The notes beneath the pieces are model-generated. The model saw only the letters and a program-made list of their open reading frames with translations, had not been told where the DNA came from and made no database searches. A program made the position numbers and the translations under genes. Below, in pieces: positions 37,615-54,524 of a DNA stretch of 64,000 nt. Source of the DNA: Candidatus Omnitrophota bacterium (GTDB taxonomy: Bacteria; Omnitrophota; Gorgyraeia; Aquiviventales; Aquiviventaceae); contig JAHFGV010000001.1 of NCBI GenBank assembly GCA_023247255.1, forward strand, positions 22,464-86,463, written 5' to 3'. Each line of letters opens with the position of its first letter. The first letter of the stretch is position 1.

Positions 37615-39324
37615 CTACCAGGCTCCTCCCCCACCCCCACCACCCCCGCCACCCGAAAATCCGCCTCCTCCAGAGCTGCCTCCTCCAAAGCCACTGGTGT
37701 CTGATCGAGGAGCAGAAGTAAAAGAATGTCCCATGGACGATGTGGCTTGAGTAATGTCCTGACCTAATTGACGTGCGGAAAAATGGTCCCAGGAACCGAC
37801 GTACCAAGATGGCGGCTGGGTATAAAGTCCTTCAAAAACCCGTGTCCATCGATCGGCGACGCCCAATGCCAAGGCATAAGGCAGAAACCGTTCAAACAGG
37901 CTCGGATCGTTGATTTGCCGCAAACGATCTTGGTCGGTGCGTCGGAGGAATTCCAAGAATCCAAAGATGTGCTCGGTGGTTTGCGCGCCTTTGAGTGTTC
38001 GCCGGGGCATGAATAGGCCAAAGACGATGATGATCAGCCCACAGAGGGCCGAGGCAATCTTGGAGGTAATGGTGTCGATTCCCCGCGAATGCTCAAGTGC
38101 TTGAAGTCCGAAAAATAGGGAAATCCCTAACGCCCAGCCGAAAATATGATAGCGGCTGCGAATACGGTCGGGATGGCTGTCCAAATACCCAGCCTCGATC
38201 AGTCCCTGATACAACTGATCTCGAATCTTGGGCAGTTTCTGGTAAAACACCTCATTGAGATCCGAAAGGTGTATAGAGGTTTCTGAAACGTCGAAGATTC
38301 CTTTCAAAAGCATTCGCTCATGCGGCTTAAGATGCGGGTCCTGTTCCCAGGGTTTTAAGCTGACGAGTTGATAGTCCCAGCCCCCGAATCGTTTCGCCTT
38401 GATTATTCGAAGATAGCCGCGGACGGCCAAATCGATGACGGTGGCGGTGATGTCTCTCAGGTTAACACGCTGATCGATCAAGGTTCCCAATTCGGCGGGA
38501 CTTACATCCTTGGGGGGCTCATACTGAACCATTGGGGAAGTTTCCAGACGAACCTCCCGTCCGCGTGCCGACCAGAGTGCCGTCATCAGAGAAAGCACAA
38601 GCAATACAAGACCATACATCCAATTATCTTCAATCCACCAACGGAAGATACGCCATCCTGAAGGGGGTTGAACCAGGCCCTTTTCCCAGGCTACCGCAGC
38701 CGTTAGCCCTTCATAAGGCTCAAGCCCTTCAGAAGGTTCAATCACCACGTGATCCACAAAGGTGTGCAGATGCTGCGTATGCGCGGTGGACCCGTAGCTT
38801 CCCAGATAGGCGATAGCCCTGAGTTCTTTAACCGTGTCTGGCAAGCGGATTTCCCCGCGTGCCTTTCGAATGGGTACCGCCCACTCGTTACCCGTGAGAT
38901 TCCAATAGCATTCATCATGGTCCGGGAAAAAGCGAACCGCCCCGCGCTTGACCTTGTAGATGATTCGGTAAGTTTGCCGACCGCTCAGTGTCAAATCAGG
39001 ATCTCCGATTCGGATACGATGGTAAGGTCCCGTGGATTCCGAGTGATACTTCAAAGCCCTGCCCGAGTCGTCGGTTATCTCCTCAATCTCTAGACGCATC
39101 CTGAAGGGTTGTCCGGCTCGATCCCTAGCATGAACTGGGATGTCCCGGTAAATACCGTGGCGGGCTTCTTGTTTAAAGTCTGCCAGAATCGTTTCCGTGA
39201 TCGTTGCGGTCGCATCCCGATGTATCTGGACTTGTGTGTCGAAGCTAGCGATTTCCCAAGCCTGTGCCGAGCCTGGAAACAAAAGCACCCCAATAATATT
39301 CAACCACCAGCGACTGAAAATCAT
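37615..39324 (-). CDS. DUF2207-domain membrane protein with Gly-rich C-terminal tail
   Basis: Signal peptide, TM segments, C-terminal [18 protein letters not shown]; paired with LemA as usual. Confidence 0.8.
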
Positions 39325-39336
39325 GCGTTTGGTTTC

Positions 39337-39885
39337 TCAAGAAAGACTAACCTTCGGGGCATTGGCTTCTTCCGGGACCTCGAGCTGGAAAAAGTCTCTG
39401 GGAAGAAAATGCGTAGTTTGAGCGACCAGCGAATTTGGAAAAATCGCCAACTTCGTATTATAGTCCCGAACCACGGCATTGTAGTAGCGTCGAGCCCCTT
39501 GAAGGGCTTCTTCAACCTGAGTCAGGGATTGTTGGAGTCCTAAGAAATTCTCATTCGCCCGCAATTGAGGATAGTTTTCGGCAACGGCAAACAGGCTTTT
39601 GAGACTGCTGGTGAGCATTCCCTCGGCAGCCTCCTTGCCTTTGGGATCTTTAACCTGCATGGCCTTAGACCGCGCTTCGGTTACTTTGACGAACACCTGT
39701 TTTTCATGAGCCGCATAGCCCTTTACGGCTTCGACGACGTTCGGGATCAAATCGTAACGACGCTTTAACTGAACCCCGATATCCGACCAGGCATTGTCCG
39801 CACGCAGCCGCATCTGCACCAAGTCATTGTACACGACGACCGTCCAAATCAAAACCACGCCAATGACTATTCCCAGGATCCACAT
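39337..39885 (-). CDS. lemA: LemA family protein
   Basis: N-terminal TM then YNDLVQMRLRADNAWSDIGVQLKRRYDLIPN. Confidence 0.9.
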   Translation of the reverse strand: MWILGIVIGVVLIWTVVVYNDLVQMRLRADNAWSDIGVQLKRRYDLIPNVVEAVKGYAAHEKQVFVKVTEARSKAMQVKDPKGKEAAEGMLTSSLKSLFAVAENYPQLRANENFLGLQQSLTQVEEALQGARRYYNAVVRDYNTKLAIFPNSLVAQTTHFLPRDFFQLEVPEEANAPKVSLS

Positions 39886-41656: not shown

Positions 41657-42490
41657 CTATGTTCCCTGTCTCACGTCCCATATCCCATTAAATAGCTCTT
41701 TCACTTTTACTTTAACGTCAGCAGCGCTCATCAAGGCCTCTCCGATTAAGAGTGCGTGGACACCGAGTCTGTGCATGCGCTGAACATCTGTTGCCGTTTG
41801 AATACCGCTTTCAGCCACCACCGTCGTCCCCGATGGAATGCTCGGGATGAGCCGTTCCGAGAGGCGAGTATCGAGGGTAAACGTCGTCAGATCCCGATGG
41901 TTGATACCGATAATCTTGGCATCCACTCTCACGGCTCTTTTAAGTTCTTCGTCGTTGTGAATCTCAACCAAAGCATCGAGCCCTAACTCTCTGGCGAGCG
42001 CTAGATATTCCGATAACTGCCCATCACTTAAAGCACGCACGATCAAGAGAACCGCATCCGCTTGATAGAATAAAGACTCATAAAGCTGATAAGCATCGAT
42101 GATGAAGTCCTTGCGCAAAACCGGAATCTCGGTGAACTGCTTAACGTCCCTTAAGAAATCCAGATGCCCGCCAAAGAAAGGCTCATCCGTCAGAACAGAC
42201 AAGGCGGATGAGCCTGCTTCCTCGAGGCTCTGAGCGAGGCTAACAGGATCGAATCTCTCCCGAAGCATTCCTTTCGATGGTGATTTGCGCTTCAGCTCCG
42301 CAATCAAGCAGAGTCTTCCCGGCTGGTAGATTGCCTGCCGAAAATCGCGCTCCCGAGCATGCCCCCCCACCCGTTCTTTGAGTTCTTCAAGAGATACCCT
42401 TTCCTTCACGCGTGCGATCTCTTGTCTTTTCCTTTCCAGAATCTTCTCAAGCATTGTCAATCGTTCGAACACCTTTGCGTCTTCTCCCAA
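41657..42490 (-). CDS. trpC: Indole-3-glycerol phosphate synthase
   Basis: IAELKRKSPSKG, LLIVRALSD, TIM-barrel IGPS motifs. Confidence 0.92.
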   Translation of the reverse strand: MGEDAKVFERLTMLEKILERKRQEIARVKERVSLEELKERVGGHARERDFRQAIYQPGRLCLIAELKRKSPSKGMLRERFDPVSLAQSLEEAGSSALSVLTDEPFFGGHLDFLRDVKQFTEIPVLRKDFIIDAYQLYESLFYQADAVLLIVRALSDGQLSEYLALARELGLDALVEIHNDEELKRAVRVDAKIIGINHRDLTTFTLDTRLSERLIPSIPSGTTVVAESGIQTATDVQRMHRLGVHALLIGEALMSAADVKVKVKELFNGIWDVRQGT

Positions 42491-42679
42491 TTTTTGTAGA
42501 CCCCCTTAGCTTTCTCAAACCCCGCTCATTCATCTCTCATCCGTAAGTAGCGAGGAAGACTCTCTTTCTCATCATCCTGTTATCGCTTATATAGTTACAG
42601 AGACTTTCGCGTCTCGCGTTTTCATAACCTATGGCTCAAAACGTCCCGTTCGTTCATCGGCTCGGTTATTCCTGGCCGT

Positions 42680-43597
42680 TCACACTTTGGCTGTTGGCCT
42701 CACTCGTAGAGTGTCACACCTCTTCAGAAGTTCTGGATTTACCTGACCCCCGAACTTCTCAAAAAAGCTTTCGAGATGAGGCATCGCTGACCACGCTCCA
42801 TATACTTGGTCATTCTCAAGTACGATTTGGGCAATCTCGTTCGCTTCCTCCGGCGTGAAAGTAGCGAACTCCAGCAAAGCTTTTGAGCTGGCACCTGCCT
42901 GATCATACGTATGACTCGCTTTTAAAGATCGGGTGGTACACTTCTTGATAGCGCCTTTCAGTTCAGGGTACTCAGACGCTATGCCGGAAAGCAATTCAAC
43001 ACACGTAGAATGAAAAGTGACTGGATGAGTTCCTCGCAAGGAAACCGCCTGACTTACTTCCATGAAACCATATGGGTCGACATCCACTTTGATGGGAGCT
43101 ATGACCATGCCCCGTCCGACAGCTATACCAGCTTCTTGGTCTGTCCATTCTGACTCATGAAAGCGTTTTGTTAGGATCGGGATGAAAATGTTACAAACGA
43201 CTGTCAGGTGACGCAGTATCACCTTTTGCCAAGCTGCCGAGGGGCGGATATCCTCGTGTGCCACAAATGCGCTGGCACCGAACCGCTCAAAGACGCTCTT
43301 TAGTTCTTTCGCAACTTCAACATCATCATGTTTATGGCTCAAGAAAACATGGATTCTATCATAAGACAACCGTCCAACTACAGGAGGTTGGACAGCTTCT
43401 CGTTCTTCAAATCTTTCAAGTTGGTCGACTCGTTTTTCCATCGCTTTATACCAAGCGTGACGGCTATCTCCGGGTGAAATCTCGCTCAACGCAGCTGTGA
43501 TATCTGTCCTGGTATATGCCTCAATTAATCCCTTGTCTCCTGTTTGGAGGAACTTATGGAAGGCAGCTATTATAGCCAGAGTTTTGTCACTAGCCAT
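42680..43597 (-). CDS. TIR-domain protein (80-aa helical N-terminus, TIR core, ~95-aa C-terminal domain)
   Basis: IHVFLSHKHDD...AFVAHEDIRPSAAWQKVI...IFIPILTKRFHESEWTDQEAGIA matches bacterial TIR (SxxxD ... SxW..E). Confidence 0.75.
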   Translation of the reverse strand: MASDKTLAIIAAFHKFLQTGDKGLIEAYTRTDITAALSEISPGDSRHAWYKAMEKRVDQLERFEEREAVQPPVVGRLSYDRIHVFLSHKHDDVEVAKELKSVFERFGASAFVAHEDIRPSAAWQKVILRHLTVVCNIFIPILTKRFHESEWTDQEAGIAVGRGMVIAPIKVDVDPYGFMEVSQAVSLRGTHPVTFHSTCVELLSGIASEYPELKGAIKKCTTRSLKASHTYDQAGASSKALLEFATFTPEEANEIAQIVLENDQVYGAWSAMPHLESFFEKFGGQVNPELLKRCDTLRVRPTAKV

Positions 43598-43633
43598 TGG
43601 GCAACTCCATTCCTGGAAGTAAACCCTACTACT

Positions 43634-44122
43634 TTACTTCCACACGATACCCCACTTATCAAGGAAGGGTTTAAGATCTTCTCCGCGTTTATTGATATTC
43701 AAGTGCCGCTTCGTATTTGTTGAATCGTGTCGTCTGCCCCCACGACCAGGAGTTTTCACCCAACGATCGTGGTCCTCTCGTAGCCACGTATCCACTTGAG
43801 CTGTTGGTACGATGTAGAATTGGAGATTTTTCGTCTTTTCGGTCAGGTTAACGAGAATCGTGAAGTCCGCTGTCTTACCGATGTCCCGGAATATTGTGCC
43901 ATCCTGCTTAACCACCCATTGCCAGTCATCGTACTCCTCGGATTTGGTCTTGACTCGAACCCGTACCATCTGCGTTCCCTTGCTAGCAAGAATATCAACG
44001 GACGGCGTGTTTCGCGGCGCAAGGGCGGCCACGATTCCCCTTTTCAGGAGTTCTGCGACAACGTAATGCTCACCAGAATTTCCGATGAGCGAACCCTGCC
44101 CCGCTTTAATTCTGCCTTCCAT
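43634..44122 (-). CDS. Small PD-(D/E)xK nuclease-fold protein (YraN/Hjc-like core)
   Basis: GNSGEHYVVAELLKRGIVAAL...SVDILAS...VRVRVKTKS = GxxGE...D...VxVK pattern. Confidence 0.6.
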   Translation of the reverse strand: MEGRIKAGQGSLIGNSGEHYVVAELLKRGIVAALAPRNTPSVDILASKGTQMVRVRVKTKSEEYDDWQWVVKQDGTIFRDIGKTADFTILVNLTEKTKNLQFYIVPTAQVDTWLREDHDRWVKTPGRGGRRHDSTNTKRHLNINKRGEDLKPFLDKWGIVWK

Positions 44123-44156
44123 CCTGAGATTTCACCCCCTGAATTTGATAACCTAC

Positions 44157-44228
44157 TTACTTATAACCGTTTAGCTTCTTGAGAATTTCCAGCGCCATCC
44201 CTAGTAACTTACACATACGGTCAGCCAT
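44157..44228 (-). CDS. 23-aa mini-ORF, paralog of 47560-47643
   Basis: MADRMCKLLGMALEILKKLNGYK; differences from its paralog are concentrated at synonymous third positions. Confidence 0.4.
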   Translation of the reverse strand: MADRMCKLLGMALEILKKLNGYK

Positions 44229-44487
44229 AAGTAATGACCGCGAGACGCTTCTTCATCTCAGAAATGCCTGTCCCTCGGTGCCTGGCACCTTTCAGGGCGG
44301 CATCTGTCTTACCGCCATTTACCGTCCTCTTTTCTGCTTCCATTCCAACCGCTTTCGTCATCCTAGTTTTTTAACCTTTCGCTGCTCGCATGCTCGGGCT
44401 TGAAGGCCTATGGTTTGCCGTTTCTTCTTTTCGAATTAGTCCTGCTTTAATAACCTCGTATCAGGCAATGAGTTCTGTTGTTGAATG

Positions 44488-45519
44488 TTATTTCTTTGGC
44501 GTGACCGAACCTAGTAATCGCCCAATTGCTTCTGTCGGAAGCTTCTGTGCACCAAGCGTATCTTCATCGTGTGGAAGCAAGCCGGAACTACCAAAAGCCA
44601 CCACTGCTTCCACCAAGTTTGCAAGAATTAAGTCACGCTGTTCAGGAGTTTGTGCTGATACCACGAATGCCTCGATGCTATTTGCAACTCTCTGCCGATG
44701 TTTATTGAGTTGGCTCATGTGGATATGTGCCCTCAACATCCTCATAGTAAAGGTAGTAATTGCCCCAACGGCAGATAAGATTACAATTCTAAGAGCCGTC
44801 TGATAGACGGCGATGTGCCATTCAGATTCTACTGGTAGCTTGATAAAGATAAATGCGATGGCCACTCCGAAGAAAGCGATGATTGCGAACGCACTCAACC
44901 AACCCCATAGCTTTATGTCTCTCGATAGTTCAATCTGAGCTTCCTTGAATTGCCGCTGTGCTTCTTGAACAGAGATTTTAGTCGCTGTCCGTCTTGCTTT
45001 CGTCTCAATTTCCTCGGCAAGTTTCTTGGCTTCGTCTATAGCTTTCCTTGCTTCTTCCTTAAGGGATTGGATAGTTTCTGATGATTCCTTTCTGAGTGAC
45101 TCGACTGTACGCTGGTATTCTTGTCTAATACCTTCATCTTCTAGGAAACCACGCTCTATGACCGCTGCGGCAACGAACGATGGCTCTGTTCGCTTAGCTT
45201 CCTCTAAGAATGTATCAATGTCGGTCAGAAAACTTGTCCTTCGCGCGATATATTGCGAGCTAGCAGAGCCAGCCTGATTCGAGAATTGGCTGTGAATTTG
45301 CTGAAGAACGTTCGTGATCTGATTAATCGGCTCATTGTGAACCTGTGGAGCGTATTGGATTGCTAATCGGCGCAATTTAGAGAGACGCTCCAACCGCGGC
45401 TGAAGCTCCTTTTCGAGAGACTCTTCACCGAGGGATTTCCTAAGAAGCTTTTCCATGTCAACCGAATTTACAGCATCGTCGGCTTTCTTCAAATTATCAA
45501 GGTATTGCTGAGATGCCAT
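44488..45519 (-). CDS. Coiled-coil protein with two adjacent TM helices (candidate membrane effector)
   Basis: ~220 aa charged helical N-terminus, TM1 LWGWLSAFAIIAFFGVAIAFIFI, TM2 IAVYQTALRIVILSAVGAITTF, ~75 aa C-terminus. Confidence 0.6.
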   Translation of the reverse strand: MASQQYLDNLKKADDAVNSVDMEKLLRKSLGEESLEKELQPRLERLSKLRRLAIQYAPQVHNEPINQITNVLQQIHSQFSNQAGSASSQYIARRTSFLTDIDTFLEEAKRTEPSFVAAAVIERGFLEDEGIRQEYQRTVESLRKESSETIQSLKEEARKAIDEAKKLAEEIETKARRTATKISVQEAQRQFKEAQIELSRDIKLWGWLSAFAIIAFFGVAIAFIFIKLPVESEWHIAVYQTALRIVILSAVGAITTFTMRMLRAHIHMSQLNKHRQRVANSIEAFVVSAQTPEQRDLILANLVEAVVAFGSSGLLPHDEDTLGAQKLPTEAIGRLLGSVTPKK

Positions 45520-45585
45520 TTTCTACCTCCTACACGACAACATTACTGTTGCCCTTATACATATTCCCAGTCTCCACCCCACACC

Positions 45586-45918
45586 TTAAGCATTACTTGC
45601 CTCAAAACCCATGACCTTCTCGTCGTCTTTTATCTCAGTACACGGTACCACAATTGAAGCAATAAAACCCCACTTCACCAAAGCAATAGAATCAAACTCT
45701 GTTTCCTGGGGCGGTCTTCCATCTGAGAAGACGATGTGTCTTTTTATTTTTGGGATGTAAACCCAAACACCAAGATCATCGACGCCTCTAATTTGCAAAT
45801 ACTGATTTTGCAAAACAATTCCCTGTTGATCCAAACCCAATTCCTGTGGCAGTTTTACGAGACACACGATAACATTCTTGTTGAGTAAGTCCTTGCCTAT
45901 AAACCCTATTTCAGGCAT
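45586..45918 (-). CDS. Hypothetical protein (110 aa)
   Basis: ORF-track ORF in AT-rich island, no recognisable motif. Confidence 0.45.
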   Translation of the reverse strand: MPEIGFIGKDLLNKNVIVCLVKLPQELGLDQQGIVLQNQYLQIRGVDDLGVWVYIPKIKRHIVFSDGRPPQETEFDSIALVKWGFIASIVVPCTEIKDDEKVMGFEASNA

Positions 45919-45928
45919 GATGGCTCCG

Positions 45929-46135
45929 TTACTTATTTGTTCTCGTTTTTACAAATTCCTCAAGATCCTCGGGCGCAATGCGCCATCTCTTTATCTTAGT
46001 CGCACGAATCTGCTTCAGATTGATGAGCTCACGCACTCTCTCCTCAGTGAGGTCCAGCTTCTCAGCGACCTTCGCCACCGTCAGGTAATTTTTGACATCC
46101 ATAACGCGATCCTCGTTCTCAGTTCTTCGGGACAT
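45929..46135 (-). CDS. Excisionase/AlpA-like HTH DNA-binding protein
   Basis: YLTVAKVAEKLDLTEERVRELINLKQIRATKIKRWRI (HTH_17 / Xis-type). Confidence 0.7.
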   Translation of the reverse strand: MSRRTENEDRVMDVKNYLTVAKVAEKLDLTEERVRELINLKQIRATKIKRWRIAPEDLEEFVKTRTNK

Positions 46136-47420
46136 TAAACACCATGACTGTAAGAATCAATTCTCTGCTGGCATCGCTCGGTTGGTGAAACATGTACTGG
46201 AAGGAAGTCTCATGCTGTTTGACGAGTTCTCTCTTGAAGCACGAATGAGTCTTCACTATCTCGGGGACTTGCGACAAGACGGCAGAGAAATCCTGATTCT
46301 TATTAAACAGAATTACTGCAATCTTCGTATCCCGCCAGCTTGCATATCTCAAGACCTGGTCTATCGCTTCGCTCAAGCTCTTTTGTCCGTGCCAAATTTT
46401 GCATTCCGCGATGAAGACATTTTTGCCTTCATAACGGATCAAAATATCGGTCTTCCCTGAATAGTTGAAGGCTTCACCCGTCGCCAATTCGTAATGGCTG
46501 TTGAGAGGAACCAAGAACTGCCATCTGAGGGATTCCTCGTCCATCTCACGAAACGCTTTGGGGCTTCGCTCCATAACAAGTGCCATCCGGGAGATCAAAT
46601 CCAGAATGTGCCTATACTCCCCTTCTTGGAGGATCGGCTCTCTCGTTACACTACCTTCCTGAATCTTCGGGGGTTCAATCAGAGGTTTTCGCCGAACCAC
46701 AGGAACGGTGTAAGTAGCCGCATCCTGTTCTCTTCGCTTTATAGGGATTCCGAGACCCTCCACTAAGCCTTCGTCCTTCAATATCCTTTCTTTTCTCGCA
46801 ACCAAAAGTCGCCTTGCCTCACCCTCTATGAACTTGTTGTGTTCTGCGGCATCGCGGGCCATAGTCTGTAAGTAGCCCTTGATCTGACCGATATCCTGCT
46901 CCATATCCGTCTTTATTTTGTCCGTGCTCATATCCTGGGGCAGACCCCGATACCGCAAATGTATCTCATTCCCCACCACGTTACCGCGGATCCCGCTTAA
47001 AGAAAAAGAGGACGGGGTGAAATGGAATAATTGTCCATCGCCTTCAAATGGGACAGCTATGGTGACGGAAATACCCTTTACAATATGCGGTTCGTCATCA
47101 TCGATGATCGCGTAATCAACACGCCCCCTCACATCCATGTCAATGTCTTCGGCGGGATGGGCAACCTTGTTGTCATCATGCAATACTGGTGTTTCTAAGG
47201 TATATCTGCCGACCAGATACTTGCACAGTTCTTCTTCGCTAGTTTTCAGCAAGTATTCACGACCCATACGCTGAACCTCGTCTTTCAAGCCTGCTTTGAG
47301 AGACTCCAACAAATTCCGAAACTCTCCCTTTTGGTGGAACAGTAATTCGTTACCTGCCATCTCACTTCGTACCCTTTGGCGTTTATAAAACTGTCCGTGC
47401 CTGCGCATATTCATTTCCAC
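46119..47420 (-). CDS. 433-aa protein with C-terminal PD-(D/E)xK nuclease motif
   Basis: GKTDILIRYEGKNVFIAECKIWHG (D...ExK) near the C-terminus; N-terminal two-thirds unrecognised. Confidence 0.6.
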   Translation of the reverse strand: MEMNMRRHGQFYKRQRVRSEMAGNELLFHQKGEFRNLLESLKAGLKDEVQRMGREYLLKTSEEELCKYLVGRYTLETPVLHDDNKVAHPAEDIDMDVRGRVDYAIIDDDEPHIVKGISVTIAVPFEGDGQLFHFTPSSFSLSGIRGNVVGNEIHLRYRGLPQDMSTDKIKTDMEQDIGQIKGYLQTMARDAAEHNKFIEGEARRLLVARKERILKDEGLVEGLGIPIKRREQDAATYTVPVVRRKPLIEPPKIQEGSVTREPILQEGEYRHILDLISRMALVMERSPKAFREMDEESLRWQFLVPLNSHYELATGEAFNYSGKTDILIRYEGKNVFIAECKIWHGQKSLSEAIDQVLRYASWRDTKIAVILFNKNQDFSAVLSQVPEIVKTHSCFKRELVKQHETSFQYMFHQPSDASRELILTVMVFNVPKN

Positions 47421-47559
47421 ACGATTCCATATTGCTCCATATTCTACTGCCAGCCGAAAGACAAGTCACCTGAAAGCTTGTCAACAGAAGGACAGAATTG
47501 CGTGCGGAAAAAGGCGTGCTCGAAAGAGGGCAATTCACGACGGATTTTTCGTAACCAAC

Positions 47560-47643
47560 TCACTCATAACCGTTCAGCTTCTTCAGCAGCCCCAGCGCCA
47601 TCTCGCGCCAACGGCACATACGGTCAGCCGTAGGTTTGGACAT
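47560..47643 (-). CDS. 27-aa mini-ORF, paralog of 44157-44228
   Basis: MSKPTADRMCRWREMALGLLKKLNGYE. Confidence 0.4.
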   Translation of the reverse strand: MSKPTADRMCRWREMALGLLKKLNGYE

Positions 47644-47651
47644 ATACCGAC

Positions 47652-48053
47652 CTATGCATTTTTGCCTTCCTGGGGAAGCTGTCGGAACACGGCTGCAAGC
47701 TCAGCTTTGCTTATCTTACCCGACGCCACCTTCAACATGGCGTCCTTAAGGTCTCCCGCCGGATCGGTAAGACTGACATCGTTCAGTTCCAGAAAGACCA
47801 ACGCGCAGGCTAACGCCGTCCGCTTGTTGCCATCGACGAACGGGTGATTCTGACAAAGATGATACGCATAGGCAGCGGCCATCTCATAGACGTCCTGGTG
47901 GAGCCATTCACCAGCGAACGAAGCCTCAGGCTGCGCAAGCGCTGATTGGAGCAGGCCCATGTCACGCAATCCGGCCTGGCCTCCGTAGCGTCTGAGTTGG
48001 TCGGCGTGTACTTCAACAACCTCGGCCAGCGTCAGGAATTGCGGCTCGCCCAC
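47652..48053 (-). CDS. doc: Doc (Fic-family) toxin; GTG start assumed
   Basis: HPFVDGNKRTALACALVFL Fic motif; GTG at 48051-48053 sits 8 nt after the antitoxin stop, GGAG upstream. Confidence 0.8.
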   Translation of the reverse strand: MGEPQFLTLAEVVEVHADQLRRYGGQAGLRDMGLLQSALAQPEASFAGEWLHQDVYEMAAAYAYHLCQNHPFVDGNKRTALACALVFLELNDVSLTDPAGDLKDAMLKVASGKISKAELAAVFRQLPQEGKNA

Positions 48054-48060
48054 GGCCAGC

Positions 48061-48288
48061 TTACTCCGCCAATTCCTTGAGCGTCTTGCCGTGGCGCCGA
48101 TTGACGGCCTCCAGGGCAGAACGGAAACGCCGTTCCTGCGTGGCATCCCTCAGGGGCGAAATGATAAGATTTCGGCCATCGGTGGACAACTCAAGCGGAG
48201 TTTTCGTGGTAATGTGGAGCAGTTCCAGCACAGCCTTATCGATGACCAGTGCTGTGCTGTTACCATGTTGCGTCAGATGTTTCACCAT
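48061..48288 (-). CDS. AbrB/MazE-fold antitoxin
   Basis: MVKHLTQHGNSTALVIDKAVLELLHITTKTPLELSTDGRNLIISP looped-hinge helix. Confidence 0.8.
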   Translation of the reverse strand: MVKHLTQHGNSTALVIDKAVLELLHITTKTPLELSTDGRNLIISPLRDATQERRFRSALEAVNRRHGKTLKELAE

Positions 48289-48545
48289 CTGAACCCCCTG
48301 TTTGACTGGTTATACAGTGTACTTACAATGTATCACCTCCATTGCGGCTCGTCAAGTGTCGCCACCTCAGCAGCGGCCAGCACCAGCCGAAATCCTTCCG
48401 CCAGGGCGTGAAACACCTGGCTGGTGTCGTGGATGGTGTCCGGCTCCGGTGCTTCAGAAAGTCCAGGTATTTTCGCACTATGGTCATCCATACGTCTAGA
48501 GGTAGAATTGTTTGGTCATCTTAAAAAATAGAACCGCCACCTCAT

Positions 48546-48770
48546 TTACCGGCAGCCACGGTCAGCATTCCAGGTTTTCCCATTCCGGCAGGAGCAGACG
48601 ACATCCTTTCCCTCGATGCGCTCGGGACGGGAGCAGGCTTCCGCAAAGGCGGTTTCGCAGTTGAGAAAAACCCCTCCGGTTAACTCGCACAGGGATTTAA
48701 ACCTCGCGAGATCGCTCTTCGCCTGACACCCTGCGAATGCAAAAAGCACGATTATGAGGATTCTGAACAC
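48546..48770 (-). CDS. Small Cys-rich lipoprotein (74 aa)
   Basis: Signal peptide plus lipobox FAFAGC, six further Cys. Confidence 0.5.
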   Translation of the reverse strand: MFRILIIVLFAFAGCQAKSDLARFKSLCELTGGVFLNCETAFAEACSRPERIEGKDVVCSCRNGKTWNADRGCR

Positions 48771-48962
48771 TGATCTTCCCGTAAACTAAGTAGACGTATT
48801 ACGGTTCTAGTGTATTCATAATAGGTTACGAGTTAATTCCGGTAAAAGCTCTGCGCTTTCACAGTGAGCTTGTTCAAAGACTCCGCAACGCTCTTAAGCA
48901 GTTCCTTCAAGTTTTTGGTCCTCATAGCGTAGCCCCTTTTACATATGTCGCTATGTGTTGCA

Positions 48963-49955
48963 TTATGGGCTGACACAAAGGCTGCGCACGCGATCGAGGA
49001 GTTGTCTTGCCTTTCCACTCTCGATTGTCTGACGTGCGGACTCCATGCCCTCTTGGATCGTCGCTGCGCGATTGGAAACGTAGATCACACAGCCGGCATT
49101 GACTACGACGATGTCGCGGGCTGGTCCTTCCTTGCCATCCAGAATGTCGCGGGCAATCGCGGCGTTTCTTTCCACAGAACCTCCCTGGATGGCTGGTAGC
49201 AAAACACGTGGAATATCAAAGGCTCGGGTATCGAGCGTGGCGCGCGTGATACGACCGTCTCGGACCTCCAGGGTATCTGTGAGTGCTGTGGTGCTGATCT
49301 CATCCAAACCATCGCGACCATGGACAACCATTCCATGCTGAACACCCAGTCGGCTGATGGCTTCTGCCATCGGCTGCAATAACCGCTCGTCGGAGACTCC
49401 CACCAATTGAAATGCCAGCGCTGCCGGATTCGCCAATGGGCCGATGAGATTGAATAGAGTGCGTATTCCCAGTTCCTTTCGGATACCTGCGACGCCTTTC
49501 ATCGCCGGATGAAAAATCGGGGCAAAACAGAACCCGAATCCCAACGTTTCCACACAGTGGGCCACCTGCTTGGGTGAAGCCGATAGATTAACGCCCATGG
49601 CCTCCAAAACATCGGCACTGCCGCAGCGGCTGGATGCTGCGCGGTTTCCGTGTTTGACGATTCGTACGCCGCTAGCGGCGGCCACCAGCGCAGCAAGTGT
49701 GGAAACGTTCACGGTTTGTTGTTTGTCTCCACCCGTGCCGCAGGTATCACAGAGATTCTGCGTATTTGTCAAGGGCAGGCGCACTGCATGGGCTCGCAGG
49801 ACTTCAACCGCAACAGCTATCTCCTGTGACGTTTCTCCCCGTTTTGCCAGCGTTTGGAGGAAAATCCGCGTGGATTCGGCAGGGTAGCTGCCAGTCATGA
49901 TCTGGGTCATGACCTGGCGCATCGCTTCGGCGGGTAAGGGCTGCTCGAAGTCCAT
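48963..49955 (-). CDS. trpD: Anthranilate phosphoribosyltransferase
   Basis: CDTCGTGGDKQQTVNVSTLAALVAAASG. Confidence 0.95.
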   Translation of the reverse strand: MDFEQPLPAEAMRQVMTQIMTGSYPAESTRIFLQTLAKRGETSQEIAVAVEVLRAHAVRLPLTNTQNLCDTCGTGGDKQQTVNVSTLAALVAAASGVRIVKHGNRAASSRCGSADVLEAMGVNLSASPKQVAHCVETLGFGFCFAPIFHPAMKGVAGIRKELGIRTLFNLIGPLANPAALAFQLVGVSDERLLQPMAEAISRLGVQHGMVVHGRDGLDEISTTALTDTLEVRDGRITRATLDTRAFDIPRVLLPAIQGGSVERNAAIARDILDGKEGPARDIVVVNAGCVIYVSNRAATIQEGMESARQTIESGKARQLLDRVRSLCVSP

Positions 49956-52186: not shown

Positions 52187-52192
52187 AACAGG

Positions 52193-52837
52193 TCACAGGT
52201 TCTTTGAATTAAACGGAAACCATGTTTGTAAAAGTGTGCGGAGGCGCACAAACGATTCATCCTGGCACCGATCCAAACTGACCCTTTCGGCAAGCTGTCG
52301 ATACAGAGAAGATGAGCGTGGAATACTGACTTGTTTCAATGCTGTTTCAAGGGCCCTCCGTGGTTCTTGAGGTTTTCTGTCAGACCCTTTCCATAATTCC
52401 TGATGTTGTAGCCAATTTCGTAATGTGGGTGTTCTGCCTTTCCATCCTAAGACGGCATCTACCTCGCTTGAATCACTCCATACCCACACTTCCAATTCAG
52501 GGTTGATAACGAGCACTTCCGCACGCTCATCCCACCCATTATTAGCGAGCCTAGCTTTTAGATTAGCTTCGATTTCCTGGACACCCGAAGTTTCTTGGCC
52601 ACAGCCTTTAGCATCAAATACCACCAGTGCTCGCTTAGCCTTTTTAAAGTAGAAACGCAATACCTCAGGGGCTTCCTTAAAGCATCCAGGGTCTCGGTGG
52701 AAATTTACTAGAATCTCGTATCGAATGGACCGAATACCCAGGCTTCTTTGACGTGTGGAGATGAGTCCTTCGAAAACTTCTCGTTCATCAGTTCCTGGAA
52801 CAAGCAAGATAAGATCGAGCGGAGATTCAGCATTCAT
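52193..52837 (-). CDS. DUF4276-like (TOPRIM-like) protein, partner of the upstream ABC/AAA_21 ATPase
   Basis: N-terminal LILLVPGTDEREVFEGLI resembles the DUF4276/TOPRIM start (VEGxTE); 4-nt overlap with the ATPase stop. Confidence 0.55.
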   Translation of the reverse strand: MNAESPLDLILLVPGTDEREVFEGLISTRQRSLGIRSIRYEILVNFHRDPGCFKEAPEVLRFYFKKAKRALVVFDAKGCGQETSGVQEIEANLKARLANNGWDERAEVLVINPELEVWVWSDSSEVDAVLGWKGRTPTLRNWLQHQELWKGSDRKPQEPRRALETALKQVSIPRSSSLYRQLAERVSLDRCQDESFVRLRTLLQTWFPFNSKNL

Positions 52838-54093
52838 CCGAGAACGCCTGTTGCAAATAGCGTCCCAAGATCAATGCCTCTTCGCCAATCTCGTAACATC
52901 GGATGTTCGCTTCCACGGACGATATCCGTAGCACCTCCGCTGCTACGAGCGAAACAAAGAATTTGCTCAGGCTCAGCAAGGGAGAGGATCACGGGTGAGT
53001 GGCTGGCGCACAGAATTTGGTTCTCATAAGTCGATGAGAGTGACTGGAATACTGCTTCAACGGCTCTGGGATGAATGCCATTCTCAGGTTCCTCAATGAG
53101 ATAAATGTGCCCTGCTTGATTGAGATAGGCCAACAGGGTGAGAGCGAGCAGTCGCAGTGTCCCATCGGATATCATCCAAGATGGCGCACTCAGTCCCGAC
53201 TGATAGGATAGGCGAAGATAGCGATGTTTGTCCTCTGGCCGTTCTACCGTATCGACCGTGTTCAAATCCGTAAGTGCCGTGCGCACGTGTCCAATCCAGC
53301 GTTCAAAACGTTCTGGGGATTTCCGTAGCTCCTCGATTACTAACGGTAGATTGGATCCATCAGGCTGAAATTCTTGAGGGCTTCCAGGAGGAGTAGGACG
53401 TCGCATCGCCTGGCTATTGAGAGTCAGACTCTGGATGCCTTCTATAAGTAGATGTTTAACCCAGATAGCCACAGGGAAACGATTTTCGTCCTCAGGCAAG
53501 TTAGCGAGCGCTGAGCGCTGGGGTCCCAATCTAAAGGGGTTGTTCCAATCTGTCGTTTCGGAAAAGAAGTAATCGTTACCGGACTCAGATTTTTTTGTCA
53601 CAACTTTTTTCCATCCTGAAGGGGTATGTTTTCCTTCGGGAAGGACAACAGGTGTGGTTATCACCTGAAGGGATGGAAAAAGTTCACGTTGGTTCTCTTT
53701 CTTTTCTTCCTCTTTAGGAGCAGGTTTTAACCAGAGCGTTTCGCTAAGGATGGAAAGCACATTCTTAACATCTAAACCTATAGCCATTTCATACCGTGCG
53801 CGTTCATACCCATTGCGTGGAAGTTGCCGCCGTCGTTCTTCAGGAATCTCCATTTCAACAGCGATTTCAAATTCTTTATTCTGTCCCATCCAGATCAGAT
53901 CTGACAGGTTGGGTGAGCGAGAATGGACCGCTTCCATGAGTCCATCTTTAAGCACATCACCGAGTAGACGGATGACATCCAGAAAAGTCGATTTTCCACT
54001 GGCATTGGGTCCTACAAGAACATGGAAGCTCTCCATTTGCTGGCGTACACGGTGTAAACAGCGATATCCCTCCACGTCAATCAGTCGGATCAT
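52834..54093 (-). CDS. AAA_21 / ABC-type ATPase (OLD/Gabija-GajA/AbiL-like), start at [10 protein letters not shown]
   Basis: Walker A VGPNASGKSTFLD, Walker B/D-loop IYLIEEPENGIHP, CASHSP; ATGA overlap with the hisI stop (tcat at 54090-54093). Confidence 0.8.
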   Translation of the reverse strand: MIRLIDVEGYRCLHRVRQQMESFHVLVGPNASGKSTFLDVIRLLGDVLKDGLMEAVHSRSPNLSDLIWMGQNKEFEIAVEMEIPEERRRQLPRNGYERARYEMAIGLDVKNVLSILSETLWLKPAPKEEEKKENQRELFPSLQVITTPVVLPEGKHTPSGWKKVVTKKSESGNDYFFSETTDWNNPFRLGPQRSALANLPEDENRFPVAIWVKHLLIEGIQSLTLNSQAMRRPTPPGSPQEFQPDGSNLPLVIEELRKSPERFERWIGHVRTALTDLNTVDTVERPEDKHRYLRLSYQSGLSAPSWMISDGTLRLLALTLLAYLNQAGHIYLIEEPENGIHPRAVEAVFQSLSSTYENQILCASHSPVILSLAEPEQILCFARSSGGATDIVRGSEHPMLRDWRRGIDLGTLFATGVLG

Positions 54094-54524
54094 TTTGAAA
54101 CTCCTTTGTACACTTTCTTTGGATCGAAAACCTTTCGACTCTGGACTTGTAATCTTCCTAAATGGGAGAGAATCCGAAAATAGCAACTGAAGTATCCGGC
54201 GTGGCAGGCGGCGACGCGCTGGCGGACGAAAAACACAAGGGATTTGCCTTCACAGTCAACGGCTATACTTTGGATGAACTGAATGTGTCCAGAGGTCTCT
54301 CCTTTACGCATGAGTGTCTGTTGGGAGCGTCGGAAAAGATAAACGGTTCCTGTCTGTAGGCTCTTACGCAAAGCTTCACGGTTGAGGTAGCACAGGGTCA
54401 GAACTTGCTTGCTCTTGGCATCTTGGATGATTGTTGGAATCAGTTCCTCATCGGAGAACTTCAAAACCGAAACGAGTTGGCGGAAACCGGCTAAGGCTTT
54501 GCCGCGCTGAAGGTTTGTCTTCAT
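54090..54524 (-). CDS. hisI: Phosphoribosyl-AMP cyclohydrolase
   Basis: [23 protein letters not shown]...[11 protein letters not shown]. Confidence 0.9.

What the first reader, a model, noticed from the sequence alone, without database searches (positions are those of the whole stretch)
44488..45519. Coiled-coil protein with two adjacent TM helices: candidate membrane-disrupting effector
About 220 aa of charged heptad-like helix (EEARKAIDEAKKLAEEIETKARR...), then two closely spaced TM helices, then a short C-terminal tail. This resembles 2-TM abortive-infection effectors (SLATT-like or CBASS 2TM) that sit near TIR or SMODS enzymes. No enzymatic motif is present.
Basis: inference. Interest (0 to 1): 0.6.

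Follow-up and report, generated by a model that had tools for sequence, protein, structure and literature searches.

The report
Uncharacterised two-TM defence-island membrane protein
This gene encodes a real, widely conserved but unnamed inner-membrane protein that travels between bacteria in small islands of anti-phage genes, usually next to restriction-modification enzymes rather than TIR enzymes, and is probably a self-contained membrane-acting defence protein whose function has not been tested.

Summary
The ORF (44488-45519, minus strand, 343 aa) is real. It belongs to a large family with no Pfam, NCBIfam or PADLOC model: 273 close homologues and 242 clusters at 50% identity with E<=1e-30, in at least 10 phyla. 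Residues 1-123 form a compact helical domain, about 75 residues form one long amphipathic helix, and a TM hairpin follows (205-228, 235-262). The 80-residue "tail" holds the family's most conserved motifs. Predicted topology is N-in/C-in.

The TIR link is not supported. None of 33 homologue loci outside this genome has a TIR gene, TIR homologues lack this protein, and the window's TIR gene is paired with a different ORF. No SLATT or CBASS model matches. Instead, 16 of 33 loci carry restriction-modification genes within about 4.5 kb, sometimes with the gene embedded between hsdS and hsdR. Copies are often inserted into housekeeping operons and often decayed.

The conserved unit is the C-terminal ~180 residues, and the N-terminal domain is swappable. 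Best reading (confidence about 0.4): a stand-alone sensor plus membrane-effector defence protein. Function is untested.

The parts
44488..45519 (-). Complete ORF, 343 aa, member of an unnamed conserved two-TM family
   Evidence: ORF list. 273 homologues, full length, 44-81% identity. 242 clusters at 50% identity with E<=1e-30.
45526..45531 (-). Shine-Dalgarno AGGAGG, 6 nt upstream of the ATG
   Evidence: Read directly from the upstream sequence printed.
45151..45519 (-). N-terminal cytoplasmic helical domain (residues 1-123), the proposed input/sensor domain, replaceable in distant relatives
   Evidence: AF2 pLDDT >90 with eight short helices. Lower conservation, 0.56. P0241 and P0254 carry unrelated N-termini on the same C-terminal module.
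45115..45153 (-). Conserved linker motif RGFLEDEGIRxEY (residues 123-135)
   Evidence: Alignment A1: invariant R123 and G130; conservation 0.84.
44908..45138 (-). Long charged amphipathic helix (residues ~128-204). Its membrane-proximal half carries the motif LAExIExRARRTAxxISVxEAQxQF.
   Evidence: AF2 helices 127-177 and 181-224 in model numbering. Periodicity peak at 3.6 residues. Invariant A164, A168, I171, E172, A175, R176, T178, A179, S183, A187, Q188, Q190, F191.
44836..44907 (-). TM helix 1 (residues ~205-228), sequence-variable apart from W205
   Evidence: Hydropathy up to 2.75. Conservation 0.53.
44818..44835 (-). Short periplasmic loop (residues ~229-234) with P229 and W234. Expanded to 20-35 Ser/Pro/Gly-rich residues in some relatives.
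   Evidence: Loop charge: mean 0.64 K+R versus 1.43 D+E, compared with basic flanks (3.0 and 4.4 K+R), which gives N-in/C-in topology. Long-loop variants P0168, P0202, P0215, P0223, P0254.
44734..44817 (-). TM helix 2 (residues ~235-262) with invariant Y239 and a conserved intramembrane basic residue R244
   Evidence: Hydropathy. R244 is R in 40 and K in 2 of 42 members; Y239 in 42 of 42. Conservation 0.735.
44581..44733 (-). Post-TM2 cytoplasmic helices (residues 263-313): LRAHxHM..NxHRxRVANS..P(E/Q)QRD..FGxSG. This is the family signature.
   Evidence: Conservation 0.82. Invariant positions. These motifs served as the peptide patterns that retrieved relatives from genomes.
44491..44580 (-). 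Low-confidence, variable C-terminal tail (residues 314-343)
   Evidence: pLDDT <50. Conservation 0.56.
44144..44232 (.). Context: copy 1 of an 89-nt direct repeat, between the target and the 162-aa/TIR pair
   Evidence: the repeat finder D1. blastn 76% over 84 nt, E=2e-14.
47547..47635 (.). Context: copy 2 of the 89-nt direct repeat, upstream of PDC-S54. Together the two copies bracket the block PDC-S54 / HTH_17 / 110-aa ORF / target.

Best explanation
The gene encodes a stand-alone, horizontally mobile inner-membrane protein of a previously unnamed family that resides in defence islands.

Shown here:
- It has a cytoplasmic N-terminal helical domain and a long amphipathic helix.
- It has a TM hairpin with a very short periplasmic loop.
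- A strongly conserved, basic, cytoplasmic juxtamembrane region is formed by the pre-TM1 and post-TM2 helices.
- The conserved evolutionary unit is the C-terminal ~180 residues, while the N-terminal domain can be exchanged.
- The gene has no obligate partner, but is found beside restriction-modification systems in about half of the sampled loci.

Inferred:
- The N-terminal domain acts as the input, sensing a phage-derived or infection-derived cue.
- The two-TM module is the output.
- On activation the protein oligomerises through the conserved juxtamembrane helices, and the hairpin (with its conserved intramembrane Arg244) compromises the membrane barrier or potential. This stops phage replication as an abortive-infection-type second line behind the neighbouring RM system.

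In this window it is one independent module of a mosaic island inserted between trpD and trpC. It is not the effector of the nearby TIR protein.
For: **Real, conserved and mobile.**
- 273 homologues and 242 clusters at 50% identity with E<=1e-30, across Omnitrophica, Acidobacteriota, Nitrospirota, Latescibacterota, Ignavibacteria, Binatia, Desulfobacterota, Verrucomicrobiota, Neomarinimicrobiota and Proteobacteria.
- Only 26 loci were found in 185,579 species genomes, so the distribution is patchy.
- Copies are inserted into housekeeping operons: trpD|trpC here, nuoF|nuoG, tldD|pmbA and isc/hsc.
- 9 of 29 loci hold split or truncated copies.

**Defence context.**
- 16 of 33 loci outside the window's own genome have RM genes within ~4.5 kb. 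Examples are hsdM-DUF2806-hsdS-X-hsdR, XamI plus an Eco57I-type methylase, MmeI, HsdR plus an HsdM/S fusion 13-42 bp upstream, and one family of ~1,350-aa type IIG enzymes in 8 loci.
- The top neighbour families in Pfam and PADLOC are RM methylases and restriction subunits. Fic/Doc, PemK and DUF4160/DUF2442 also recur.

**No conserved partner.** All-vs-all clustering of neighbours found none.

**Modularity.**
- P0241 and P0254 share only the C-terminal module.
- P0241's N-terminal domain occurs in 28 other proteins. The longer ones fuse it to a different soluble C-terminal domain.

**Topology and conservation.**
Against: - No experiment supports this, and no homologue has a known function.
- No statistically sound similarity was found to any characterised pore-forming or abortive-infection effector. 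Foldseek against PDB gave best E=0.64, and the PDB sequence profile found only low-complexity helices.
- TM1 is poorly conserved and there is no obvious polar pore-lining face. The strongest conservation is cytoplasmic, which would equally fit a scaffold or a regulator.
- RM co-localisation may simply reflect shared integration hotspots. Many RM-positive loci are Nitrospirales or Latescibacterota, so they are not independent events.
- N-terminal swapping was seen in only 2 of the 150 listed representatives.
- The family is absent from sequenced phages, plasmids and IMG/VR, so nothing is known about its interplay with phages.
Confidence: 0.4

Rival explanations
1. One reading: the protein is the membrane effector of a TIR (Thoeris-like) or SMODS/CBASS nucleotide-signalling system, activated by the product of the nearby TIR protein.
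For: - A TIR_2 protein (42680-43597, E=1.4e-11) lies 0.9 kb downstream on the same strand.
- TIR systems with TM effectors, including SLATT, are known (bioRxiv 10.64898/2025.12.03.692087).
- The conserved basic cytoplasmic residues (R176, R263, H267, H274, R275, R277, R295) could form a nucleotide-binding pocket like those modelled for SLATT and ThsF effectors in that preprint.
Against: - 0 of 33 homologue loci has a TIR ORF by profile HMM, and 0 of 5 TIR-homologue loci has a family member.
- No SMODS, cyclase or TIR family is among the 25 most frequent neighbour families.
- The window protein has no SLATT or CBASS-effector HMM hit, and no SLATT family is among the 25 listed for the 42 members.
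- The TIR gene is tightly paired (36 bp) with a PD-(D/E)XK-like ORF. The target is 365 bp away and on the other side of an 89-nt repeat boundary.
- The 79%-identical orthologue lies with an RM pair and no TIR gene.
Confidence: 0.06
2. A non-lethal RM accessory: a membrane anchor or scaffold that recruits or regulates RM enzymes at the inner membrane where phage DNA enters, or a blocker of DNA entry (superinfection exclusion).
For: - The gene is directly adjacent to and co-oriented with RM genes of several types. All of these share a gamma-class N6-adenine methylase domain (N6_Mtase, Eco57I, MmeI_Mtase). It is embedded between hsdS and hsdR in two loci.
- The highest conservation is on cytoplasmic helices, as expected for a protein-protein interface.
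- TM1 behaves like a simple anchor.
Against: - About half of the loci have no RM nearby (17 of the 33, among them; the window's own island, also shows none among the ORFs scanned).
- The gene occurs with four different RM architectures and in both gene orders, which argues against a specific protein partner.
- The periplasmic loop is about 6 residues, or is replaced by unconstrained Ser/Pro-rich inserts, which is a poor fit for an entry blocker acting in the periplasm.
- The swappable N-domain fits a sensor better than a dedicated RM adaptor.
Confidence: 0.2
3. An accessory membrane protein unrelated to phage defence (for example envelope-stress or mobile-element maintenance) that merely hitchhikes in variable genomic islets.
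For: - No known defence model matches convincingly.
- 17 of 33 loci show no RM.
- Some JGI records label relatives 'ElaB/YqjD/DUF883 membrane-anchored ribosome-binding protein'.
- One locus lies beside a Prim-Pol/HTH_17 integrative-element block.
Against: - RM genes occur next to half of the loci. That is far above the roughly 1% expected for a random 10-kb window in a genome with a few RM systems (my own estimate from general knowledge, not computed here).
- Toxin-antitoxin and Fic neighbours recur.
- No Pfam DUF883 or YqjD match was found, so the JGI label probably reflects only helix-plus-anchor composition.
- Patchy distribution and frequent decay are typical of costly defence genes.
Confidence: 0.17
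4. A GTPase-less relative of the stalk/paddle part of bacterial dynamin-like proteins (Eleos LeoBC) that remodels or repairs membrane during infection.
For: - The PADLOC LeoBC model matches 27 of 42 members (best E=1.5e-7). For the window protein the match covers residues 24-281 against profile positions 280-520 of 601.
- The LeoC model matches 20 of 42 members.
Against: - LeoC is the N-terminal half of a GTPase domain plus a 22-residue anchor (PMC4159319). The match covers only the helix-plus-anchor end of that profile (positions 107-201 of 207).
- 0 of 42 members has a P-loop.
- No solved dynamin-like protein appears in either the sequence-profile or the Foldseek search of the PDB.
- ZorA coiled-coil models hit as well (8 of 42), which points to composition-driven scores.
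- No dynamin or LeoA partner is among the 25 most frequent neighbour families.
Confidence: 0.07
5. In this genome the protein works as the last gene of a four-gene cassette (PDC-S54, HTH_17, 110-aa ORF, two-TM protein) rather than alone.
For: - The four genes are tightly packed on one strand, with gaps of -17, 10 and 66 bp.
- They are bracketed by an 89-nt direct repeat.
- They are found together on three contigs from separate samples.
Against: - None of PDC-S54, HTH_17 or the 110-aa ORF has a homologue in any of the 29 loci searched (tblastn).
- PADLOC lists PDC-S54 under its S (single-gene candidate) series, and the model covers the whole 433-aa protein.
- All three contigs are 100% identical, so they represent one lineage.
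Confidence: 0.1

Closest known systems
SLATT-domain effectors (CBASS; Thoeris type VII ThsH)
   Same: Two adjacent TM helices followed by a conserved cytoplasmic helical region rich in basic residues. Defence-island location. Presumed oligomerising membrane effector (description of SLATT/ThsH from bioRxiv 10.64898/2025.12.03.692087).
   Different: - No SLATT HMM match for the window protein in Pfam or NCBIfam, and none among the 25 families listed for the 42 members.
- The hairpin is preceded by ~200 residues of input domain and long helix.
- There is no linked SMODS, TIR or SLOG enzyme.
- The neighbours are RM systems.
RM-embedded abortive-infection genes of the PrrC/RloC type (type I RM loci)
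   Same: The position is the same: an extra gene inside or beside a type I hsd operon (between hsdS and hsdR in L012 and L052). This suggests a second-line or 'guard' role. That PrrC is embedded in the EcoprrI locus is my own knowledge.
   Different: PrrC and RloC are soluble ABC-ATPase anticodon nucleases. This protein has no Walker A, has two TM helices, and also occurs next to type IIG, IIL and II systems, or alone.
Eleos LeoBC / bacterial dynamin-like proteins
   Same: Weak, family-wide PADLOC similarity to LeoBC and LeoC. Long helices carrying a membrane-inserting hairpin.
   Different: No GTPase domain or P-loop. No LeoA partner. No sequence or fold match to solved dynamin-like proteins. 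LeoC is in fact half of a GTPase domain plus an anchor.
Thoeris TM effectors (type II Macro-TM ThsA, type V ThsF/DUF2270)
   Same: Membrane-spanning cell-killing effectors with cytoplasmic ligand-binding parts. The window also contains a TIR protein.
   Different: Those effectors lie in tight two-gene operons with their TIR gene. Here TIR co-occurrence is 0 of 33 loci, and there is no Macro or DUF2270 match.
CorA-type channels (including CRISPR-associated CorA effectors)
   Same: Cytoplasmic domain, long stalk helix running into TM1, very short periplasmic loop, then TM2. 4 of 42 members give weak CorA Pfam hits (best E=1.6e-4).
   Different: The loop has no GMN motif (it reads KLPVESEW). There is an extra conserved 50-residue post-TM2 region. 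No CorA appears in the PDB profile or Foldseek results.
Uncharacterised Siphoviridae protein A0A8S5TVZ3 (BFVD)
   Same: The only significant structural match: Foldseek E=3.1e-5, probability 1.00, 308 aligned columns of a 300-aa protein.
   Different: 15% identity, rmsd 21 A, and no annotation. It could not be retrieved or analysed further.

Membership tests
SLATT (Pfam PF18181-PF18186, PF18160; NCBIfam SLATT models) | Significant match to a SLATT profile HMM | tested here: not met
   No SLATT family at E<=0.1 for the window protein in Pfam or NCBIfam. None among the 25 families most often matched by the 42 members at E<=0.05 (the other 41 families were not listed). Profile-profile comparison (HHpred) could not be run.
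SLATT | Two TM helices followed by a cytoplasmic helical region | tested here: met
   TM helices at 205-228 and 235-262, followed by helices to ~312. N-in/C-in by the positive-inside rule. This is architecture only.
SLATT | Genomic linkage to SMODS, SLOG or TIR nucleotide-signal enzymes | tested here: not met
   TIR profile HMM: 0 of 33 homologue loci. No SMODS, SLOG or TIR family among the 25 most frequent neighbour families.
CBASS 2TM/4TM effectors | Adjacent CD-NTase, and a match to a PADLOC CBASS effector model | tested here: not met
   PADLOC returns only LeoBC and LeoC for the window protein. For the 42 members it returns those two plus ZorA, LmuA/LmuB and other sporadic models, none of them a CBASS effector. 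No CD-NTase among the top neighbour families.
Thoeris effector (any type) | Conserved two-gene operon with a TIR (ThsB) gene | tested here: not met
   In the window the TIR gene's immediate partner is ORF 43634-44122 (36-bp gap), and the target is 365 bp away.
Eleos LeoBC / dynamin-like protein | Dynamin GTPase domain (P-loop, switch motifs) | tested here: not met
   0 of 42 members has [AG]xxxxGK[ST]. LeoC is defined as a GTPase half plus an anchor (PMC4159319).
Eleos LeoBC / dynamin-like protein | Significant profile match to the stalk/paddle region | tested here: inconclusive
   LeoBC matches 27 of 42 members, best E=1.5e-7. ZorA coiled-coil models also hit 8 of 42, so composition bias is likely. 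No solved DLP was found by sequence or fold search.
Eleos LeoBC / dynamin-like protein | Adjacent LeoA-type dynamin partner | tested here: not met
   No dynamin family among the 25 most frequent neighbour families. No conserved partner in the all-vs-all clustering.
CorA/ZntB channels | GMN-type motif in the short loop after TM1, and a CorA HMM match | tested here: not met
   The loop is KLPVESEW (sequence). CorA matches only 4 of 42 members, best E=1.6e-4. No CorA appears in the PDB searches.
   No such family in Pfam or NCBIfam. The only hits are sub-threshold helical families (DUF2207_C E=0.0055, ATP synthase b, flagellin).
PrrC/RloC-type RM-embedded Abi | Gene embedded in or beside an RM operon | tested here: met
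   L012 and L052 lie between hsdS and hsdR. 16 of 33 loci have RM within ~4.5 kb.
PrrC/RloC-type RM-embedded Abi | ABC-ATPase domain plus anticodon-nuclease domain | tested here: not met
   No Walker A and no matching Pfam family.
Any membrane-disrupting Abi effector (functional class) | Toxicity or membrane depolarisation on activation, and phage protection | not testable with these tools
   Requires expression and phage-challenge experiments.

The most novel reading that the evidence does not exclude
The conserved ~180-residue two-TM module (ARRTAxxISVxEAQxQF, hairpin with intramembrane Arg, LRAHxHM..NxHRxRVANS..PEQRD..FGxSG) is a new, widespread class of membrane output domain with exchangeable input domains. 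It would act as a guard of restriction-modification systems. Like PrrC with EcoprrI, it would be held silent while the neighbouring gamma-class methylase/RM complex is intact, and would kill or arrest the cell through the membrane when a phage anti-restriction factor disables that complex.
Probability: 0.12. Interest if true: 0.75.

Novelty: new variant of a known kind. Interest (0 to 1): 0.42.

Why it matters
If the protein is a defence effector, it adds a sizeable family to the anti-phage repertoire. The family has hundreds of sequence clusters in at least ten phyla, mostly uncultured soil and groundwater lineages that current catalogues cover poorly, and no Pfam, NCBIfam or PADLOC model describes it. 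Its repeated placement inside and beside RM operons makes it a tractable case for asking how second-line or guard functions are wired to restriction systems. Its swappable N-terminus gives a natural handle for finding what such proteins sense.

For this window, the practical result is a correction. The TIR protein and the two-TM protein should be annotated as separate modules of a mosaic island that splits the trp operon.

Tried and rejected
- **PDB searches.** The sequence-profile search gave only designed helical bundles and ATP synthase b, which is noise.
- **LeoC lead.** Followed into the literature and rejected as family membership.
- **Mobile-element collections.** Plasmid, phage and IMG/VR searches found no relatives.
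- **Neighbour mapping.** An in-sandbox jackhmmer mapping of RM neighbours was too insensitive. It was replaced by Pfam scans of the large neighbours and by all-vs-all clustering.
- **Alternative C-terminal domain.** The domain fused to the P0241-type N-terminus could not be identified. Nuc_deoxyrib_tr scored only E=0.018 and PDB gave nothing. My reading of it as a Rossmann/TIR-like fold is a motif-level impression only.
- **Transcription and RNA signals.** The promoter/terminator scan was uninformative: counts were near shuffle expectation, with no minus-strand signal between the target and its neighbours. Rfam and tRNA scans of the whole window were empty.
- **Literature.** Searches found no description of this family.
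- **Source organism.** It could not be named; the cluster look-up returned no name or accession.
Full report
**Observation**

The ORF at 44488..45519 (minus strand) is real. It is 343 aa, starts with ATG and has an AGGAGG ribosome-binding site 6 nt upstream. Kyte-Doolittle analysis gives two hydrophobic helices at residues ~205-228 and ~235-262. A weaker, conserved amphipathic stretch lies at 296-316.

It is clearly a gene. A search of 5.8 billion proteins returned 273 homologues, nearly all ~340 aa, full length and 44-81% identical. None has a Pfam domain, and all are 'hypothetical'. A profile search of 1.84 billion cluster representatives found 242 clusters with E<=1e-30 and 530 with E<=1e-10.

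**Anatomy**

An AlphaFold2 model built on a 42-sequence alignment (mean pLDDT 76.8) shows the following:
- Residues 1-123 form a compact bundle of eight short helices, with pLDDT above 90.
- A 50-residue helix follows.
- A second helix runs straight into TM1.
- A turn of about 8 residues follows.
- A 55-residue helix contains TM2 and continues into the cytoplasm.
- One more helix follows, and the tail is disordered.

Alignment and model numbering equals ORF residue minus 1, because I trimmed the start codon instead of the stop. All residues below are in ORF numbering, checked.

Across the family, basic residues flank the hairpin on both sides (means 3.0 and 4.4 K+R), while the loop is acidic. 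Both termini are therefore cytoplasmic and only about 6 residues face the periplasm.

Conservation is uneven:
- **Linker 123-135 (RGFLEDEGIRxEY):** 0.84.
- **Post-TM2 segment 263-313:** 0.82.
- **Pre-TM helix and TM2:** 0.735 each.
- **N-domain:** 0.56.
- **TM1:** 0.53.

Invariant positions include E172, R176, W205, W234, Y239, R263, N272, H274, R275, N280, S281, R295, D296 and the FGxSG turn. An intramembrane basic residue at position 244 is R in 40 and K in 2 of 42 members.

The hydrophobic periodicity of helix 136-177 peaks at 3.6 residues rather than 3.5. The 'tail' is the family signature.

**Known-family tests**
- **Pfam and NCBIfam.** Nothing passes threshold. No SLATT model matches the window protein, and the sub-threshold hits are generic helical families. 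No SLATT family is among the 25 listed for the 42 members.
- **PADLOC.** Only weak LeoBC and LeoC matches appear. They are family-wide (27 and 20 of 42 members, best E=1.5e-7), but coiled-coil ZorA hits accompany them.
- **What LeoC is.** The LeoABC paper shows that LeoC is the P-loop half of a dynamin GTPase plus a 22-residue anchor (PMC4159319). The match covers only the helix-plus-anchor end of that profile, and no family member has a Walker A.
- **Solved structures.** None is related by sequence or by Foldseek (best E=0.64).
- **Viral structures.** The only significant structural match is an unannotated 300-aa Siphoviridae protein in BFVD (E=3.1e-5, 15% identity).

**Context in the window**

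The gene lies in a low-GC stretch (0.46-0.50 versus ~0.53-0.55) inserted between trpD (48963-49955) and trpC (41657-42490). All island genes are on the minus strand:
- a Phd/MazE-like ORF and Doc (48288-47652)
- PDC-S54 (47420-46119, PADLOC E=3e-140)
- an HTH_17 protein
- a 110-aa ORF
- the target
- a 162-aa PD-(D/E)XK-like ORF
- a TIR_2 protein

The gaps are -17, 10 and 66 bp from PDC-S54 down to the target. A 365-bp gap separates the target from the 162-aa ORF, and only 36 bp separate that ORF from the TIR gene. An 89-nt direct repeat (76% identity, E=2e-14) at 44144-44232 and 47547-47635 brackets exactly the PDC-S54-to-target block.

**Is the TIR link real?**

No.
- tblastn with the window's TIR, 162-aa, 110-aa, HTH_17, PDC-S54 and Doc proteins found matches only on the same genome's own contigs. 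None of the other loci fetched by then (L004-L041, which include the 29 independent homologue loci) matched.
- A TIR profile HMM built from 120 TIR homologues was searched against every ORF of all 52 fetched loci. It found TIR ORFs only in the window's own contigs and in the five loci fetched with TIR homologues.
- A family HMM found the two-TM protein in the other 47 loci and in none of those five.
- TIR homologues sit in unrelated contexts.
- Published TIR signalling systems are tight TIR-plus-effector operons (bioRxiv 10.64898/2025.12.03.692087). Here that position is occupied by the 162-aa ORF.

**What the family does travel with**

I examined 33 loci outside the window's own genome: 29 analysed, plus L047, L049, L051 and L052. 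Sixteen have RM genes within ~4.5 kb:
- **Type II pair.** XamI plus an Eco57I-type methylase, with the triplet inserted between nuoF and nuoG (79%-identical orthologue).
- **Type I, embedded.** hsdM-DUF2806-hsdS-X-DUF4160-DUF2442-hsdR and hsdM-Fic-DUF2806-hsdS-X-hsdR-YgjP. A decayed version has an HsdM fragment and Fic.
- **MmeI plus Dam**.
- **HsdR-like plus N6_Mtase/Methylase_S fusion.** These lie 13 and 42 bp upstream.
- **HsdM downstream.** One locus, L040.
- **Type IIG.** One family of ~1,350-1,430-aa Eco57I-like enzymes, or remnants of them, occurs in eight loci in both gene orders.

A bulk scan of 109 nearest-neighbour ORFs ranks Eco57I, N6_Mtase, HSDR_N/ResIII/SWI2_SNF2 and Methylase_S at the top in Pfam. 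In PADLOC the top families are mad2, MTase_II, REase_MTase_IIG and MTase_I.

All-vs-all clustering of every ORF within 3 kb found no universal partner. Fic/Doc, PemK and DUF4160/DUF2442 recur.

Other copies sit between tldD and pmbA, at the isc/hsc operon, or beside a Prim-Pol/HTH_17 element. Nine of the 29 loci hold split or truncated copies.

The family is absent from sequenced plasmids, phages and IMG/VR. Several RM-positive loci come from Nitrospirales and Latescibacterota, so the 16 are not 16 independent events.

**Modularity**

Distant representatives show that the conserved unit is the C-terminal ~180 residues: the pre-TM helix, the hairpin and the post-TM motifs.
- P0241 and P0254 carry unrelated N-termini.
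- Five members have 20-35-residue Ser/Pro/Gly-rich periplasmic loops, so the loop is unconstrained.
- P0241's N-terminal domain (CPIWG..SPRAGG.Y.IS, then a winged-helix-like stretch) recurs in 28 other proteins. The longer ones fuse it to a different soluble C-terminal domain.
- That other domain could not be identified (Nuc_deoxyrib_tr E=0.018; nothing in PDB).

An input domain that recombines with alternative C-terminal domains places the two-TM module in the output slot of a modular protein.

**Interpretation**

Shown:
- The family is a mobile, patchily distributed inner-membrane protein family, independent of partner genes and associated with RM and defence islands.
- Both termini are cytoplasmic.
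- It has a conserved basic juxtamembrane region.
- The N-terminus is exchangeable.

Inferred (confidence about 0.4): it is a self-contained sensor-effector that perturbs the membrane on activation, acting as a second line beside RM.

The main rival (about 0.2) is a non-lethal RM accessory or scaffold. This fits the fact that conservation is cytoplasmic and TM1 looks like a plain anchor.

**Novelty and verdict**

The family is undescribed in the libraries and literature I could search. Its likely kind, a defence-island membrane effector, is well known. The RM linkage, the stand-alone modular design and the lack of any signalling enzyme make it a new variant rather than a new category.

Interest is moderate (0.42). 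It is a sound candidate family worth a toxicity and phage assay. Nothing here would by itself surprise a specialist, and the specific TIR-coupled reading that motivated the finding is not supported.

Noticed in passing
window 44144-44232 and 47547-47635: An 89-nt direct repeat (76% identity over 84 nt, E=2e-14) brackets the 3.4-kb block PDC-S54 / HTH_17 / 110-aa ORF / two-TM gene. On the minus strand both copies end in a short conserved reading frame (MADRMCKLLGMALEILKKLNGYK* and ..ADRMCRWREMALGLLKKLNGYE*), with partly synonymous differences. They may be duplicated 3' gene ends or mini-ORFs marking a cassette insertion boundary.
   Followed up: partly
window ~42600-48900: A low-GC mosaic island (GC 0.46-0.50) splits the tryptophan operon between trpD (48963-49955) and trpC (41657-42490). 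No tRNA, integrase or Rfam element was found in the window. Relatives of the two-TM gene likewise interrupt the nuo, tldD/pmbA and isc/hsc operons.
   Followed up: partly
window 42680-43597 and 43634-44122 (minus strand): A TIR_2 protein (E=1.4e-11, with weak ThsB and Thoeris type III ThcB4 hits) lies 36 bp downstream of a 162-aa ORF with a weak PD-(D/E)XK (PDDEXK_5, E=0.002) match. This may be a two-gene Thoeris-like TIR plus nuclease system. The two closest TIR homologues examined lack the 162-aa partner.
   Followed up: partly
window 46119-47420, 45929-46135, 45586-45918 (minus strand): A full-length PADLOC candidate PDC-S54 (E=3e-140; weak HSDR_N-like nuclease signal at residues 319-360) overlaps by 17 bp a 68-aa HTH_17 (excisionase/AlpA-like) gene. 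A 110-aa ORF with no hit in any library follows.
   Followed up: no
window 47652-48288 (minus strand): A Phd/MazE-like antitoxin ORF and a Doc/Fic toxin (Fic E=4.9e-21) sit at the trpD-proximal edge of the island. The mechanical ORFs overlap by 86 nt, and the metagenome gene call starts Doc further downstream (133 aa).
   Followed up: no
window ~52190-54100 (minus strand), upstream of trpE: A second low-GC patch (0.479) holds an AAA_15/AAA_21/SMC_N-type ATPase (419 aa) and a 214-aa ORF directly upstream of trpE. It looks like another small defence-type insertion. Coordinates are inferred from the L001 gene table.
   Followed up: no
window 48546-48770 (minus strand): A 74-aa ORF begins MFRILIIVLFAFAGCQ, which looks like a lipoprotein signal peptide with a lipobox cysteine. 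It lies between the Phd/Doc pair and trpD and has no family hit.
   Followed up: no
window 37615-39885 (minus strand): A LemA plus DUF2207 membrane-protein pair lies just outside the island. The two-TM family gives weak, sub-threshold matches to DUF2207_C (7 of 42 members, best E=0.0011). This is probably compositional.
   Followed up: no
L021, L025, L027, L030, L033, L038, L041 (fragment in L026): One family of very large (~1,350-1,430 aa) Eco57I/N6_Mtase type IIG-like enzymes is the single most frequent neighbour of the two-TM family. They also hit the PADLOC mad2, DrmMI and PglX models. Whether they belong to BREX, DISARM or MADS-like systems was not examined.
   Followed up: partly
P0125 (444 aa): This representative carries the post-TM2 signature twice (..RAHLHLAEKNRHRVRVANCIESF.. 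repeated), separated by unrelated sequence. This is probably an assembly or frameshift artefact, or a local duplication.
   Followed up: no
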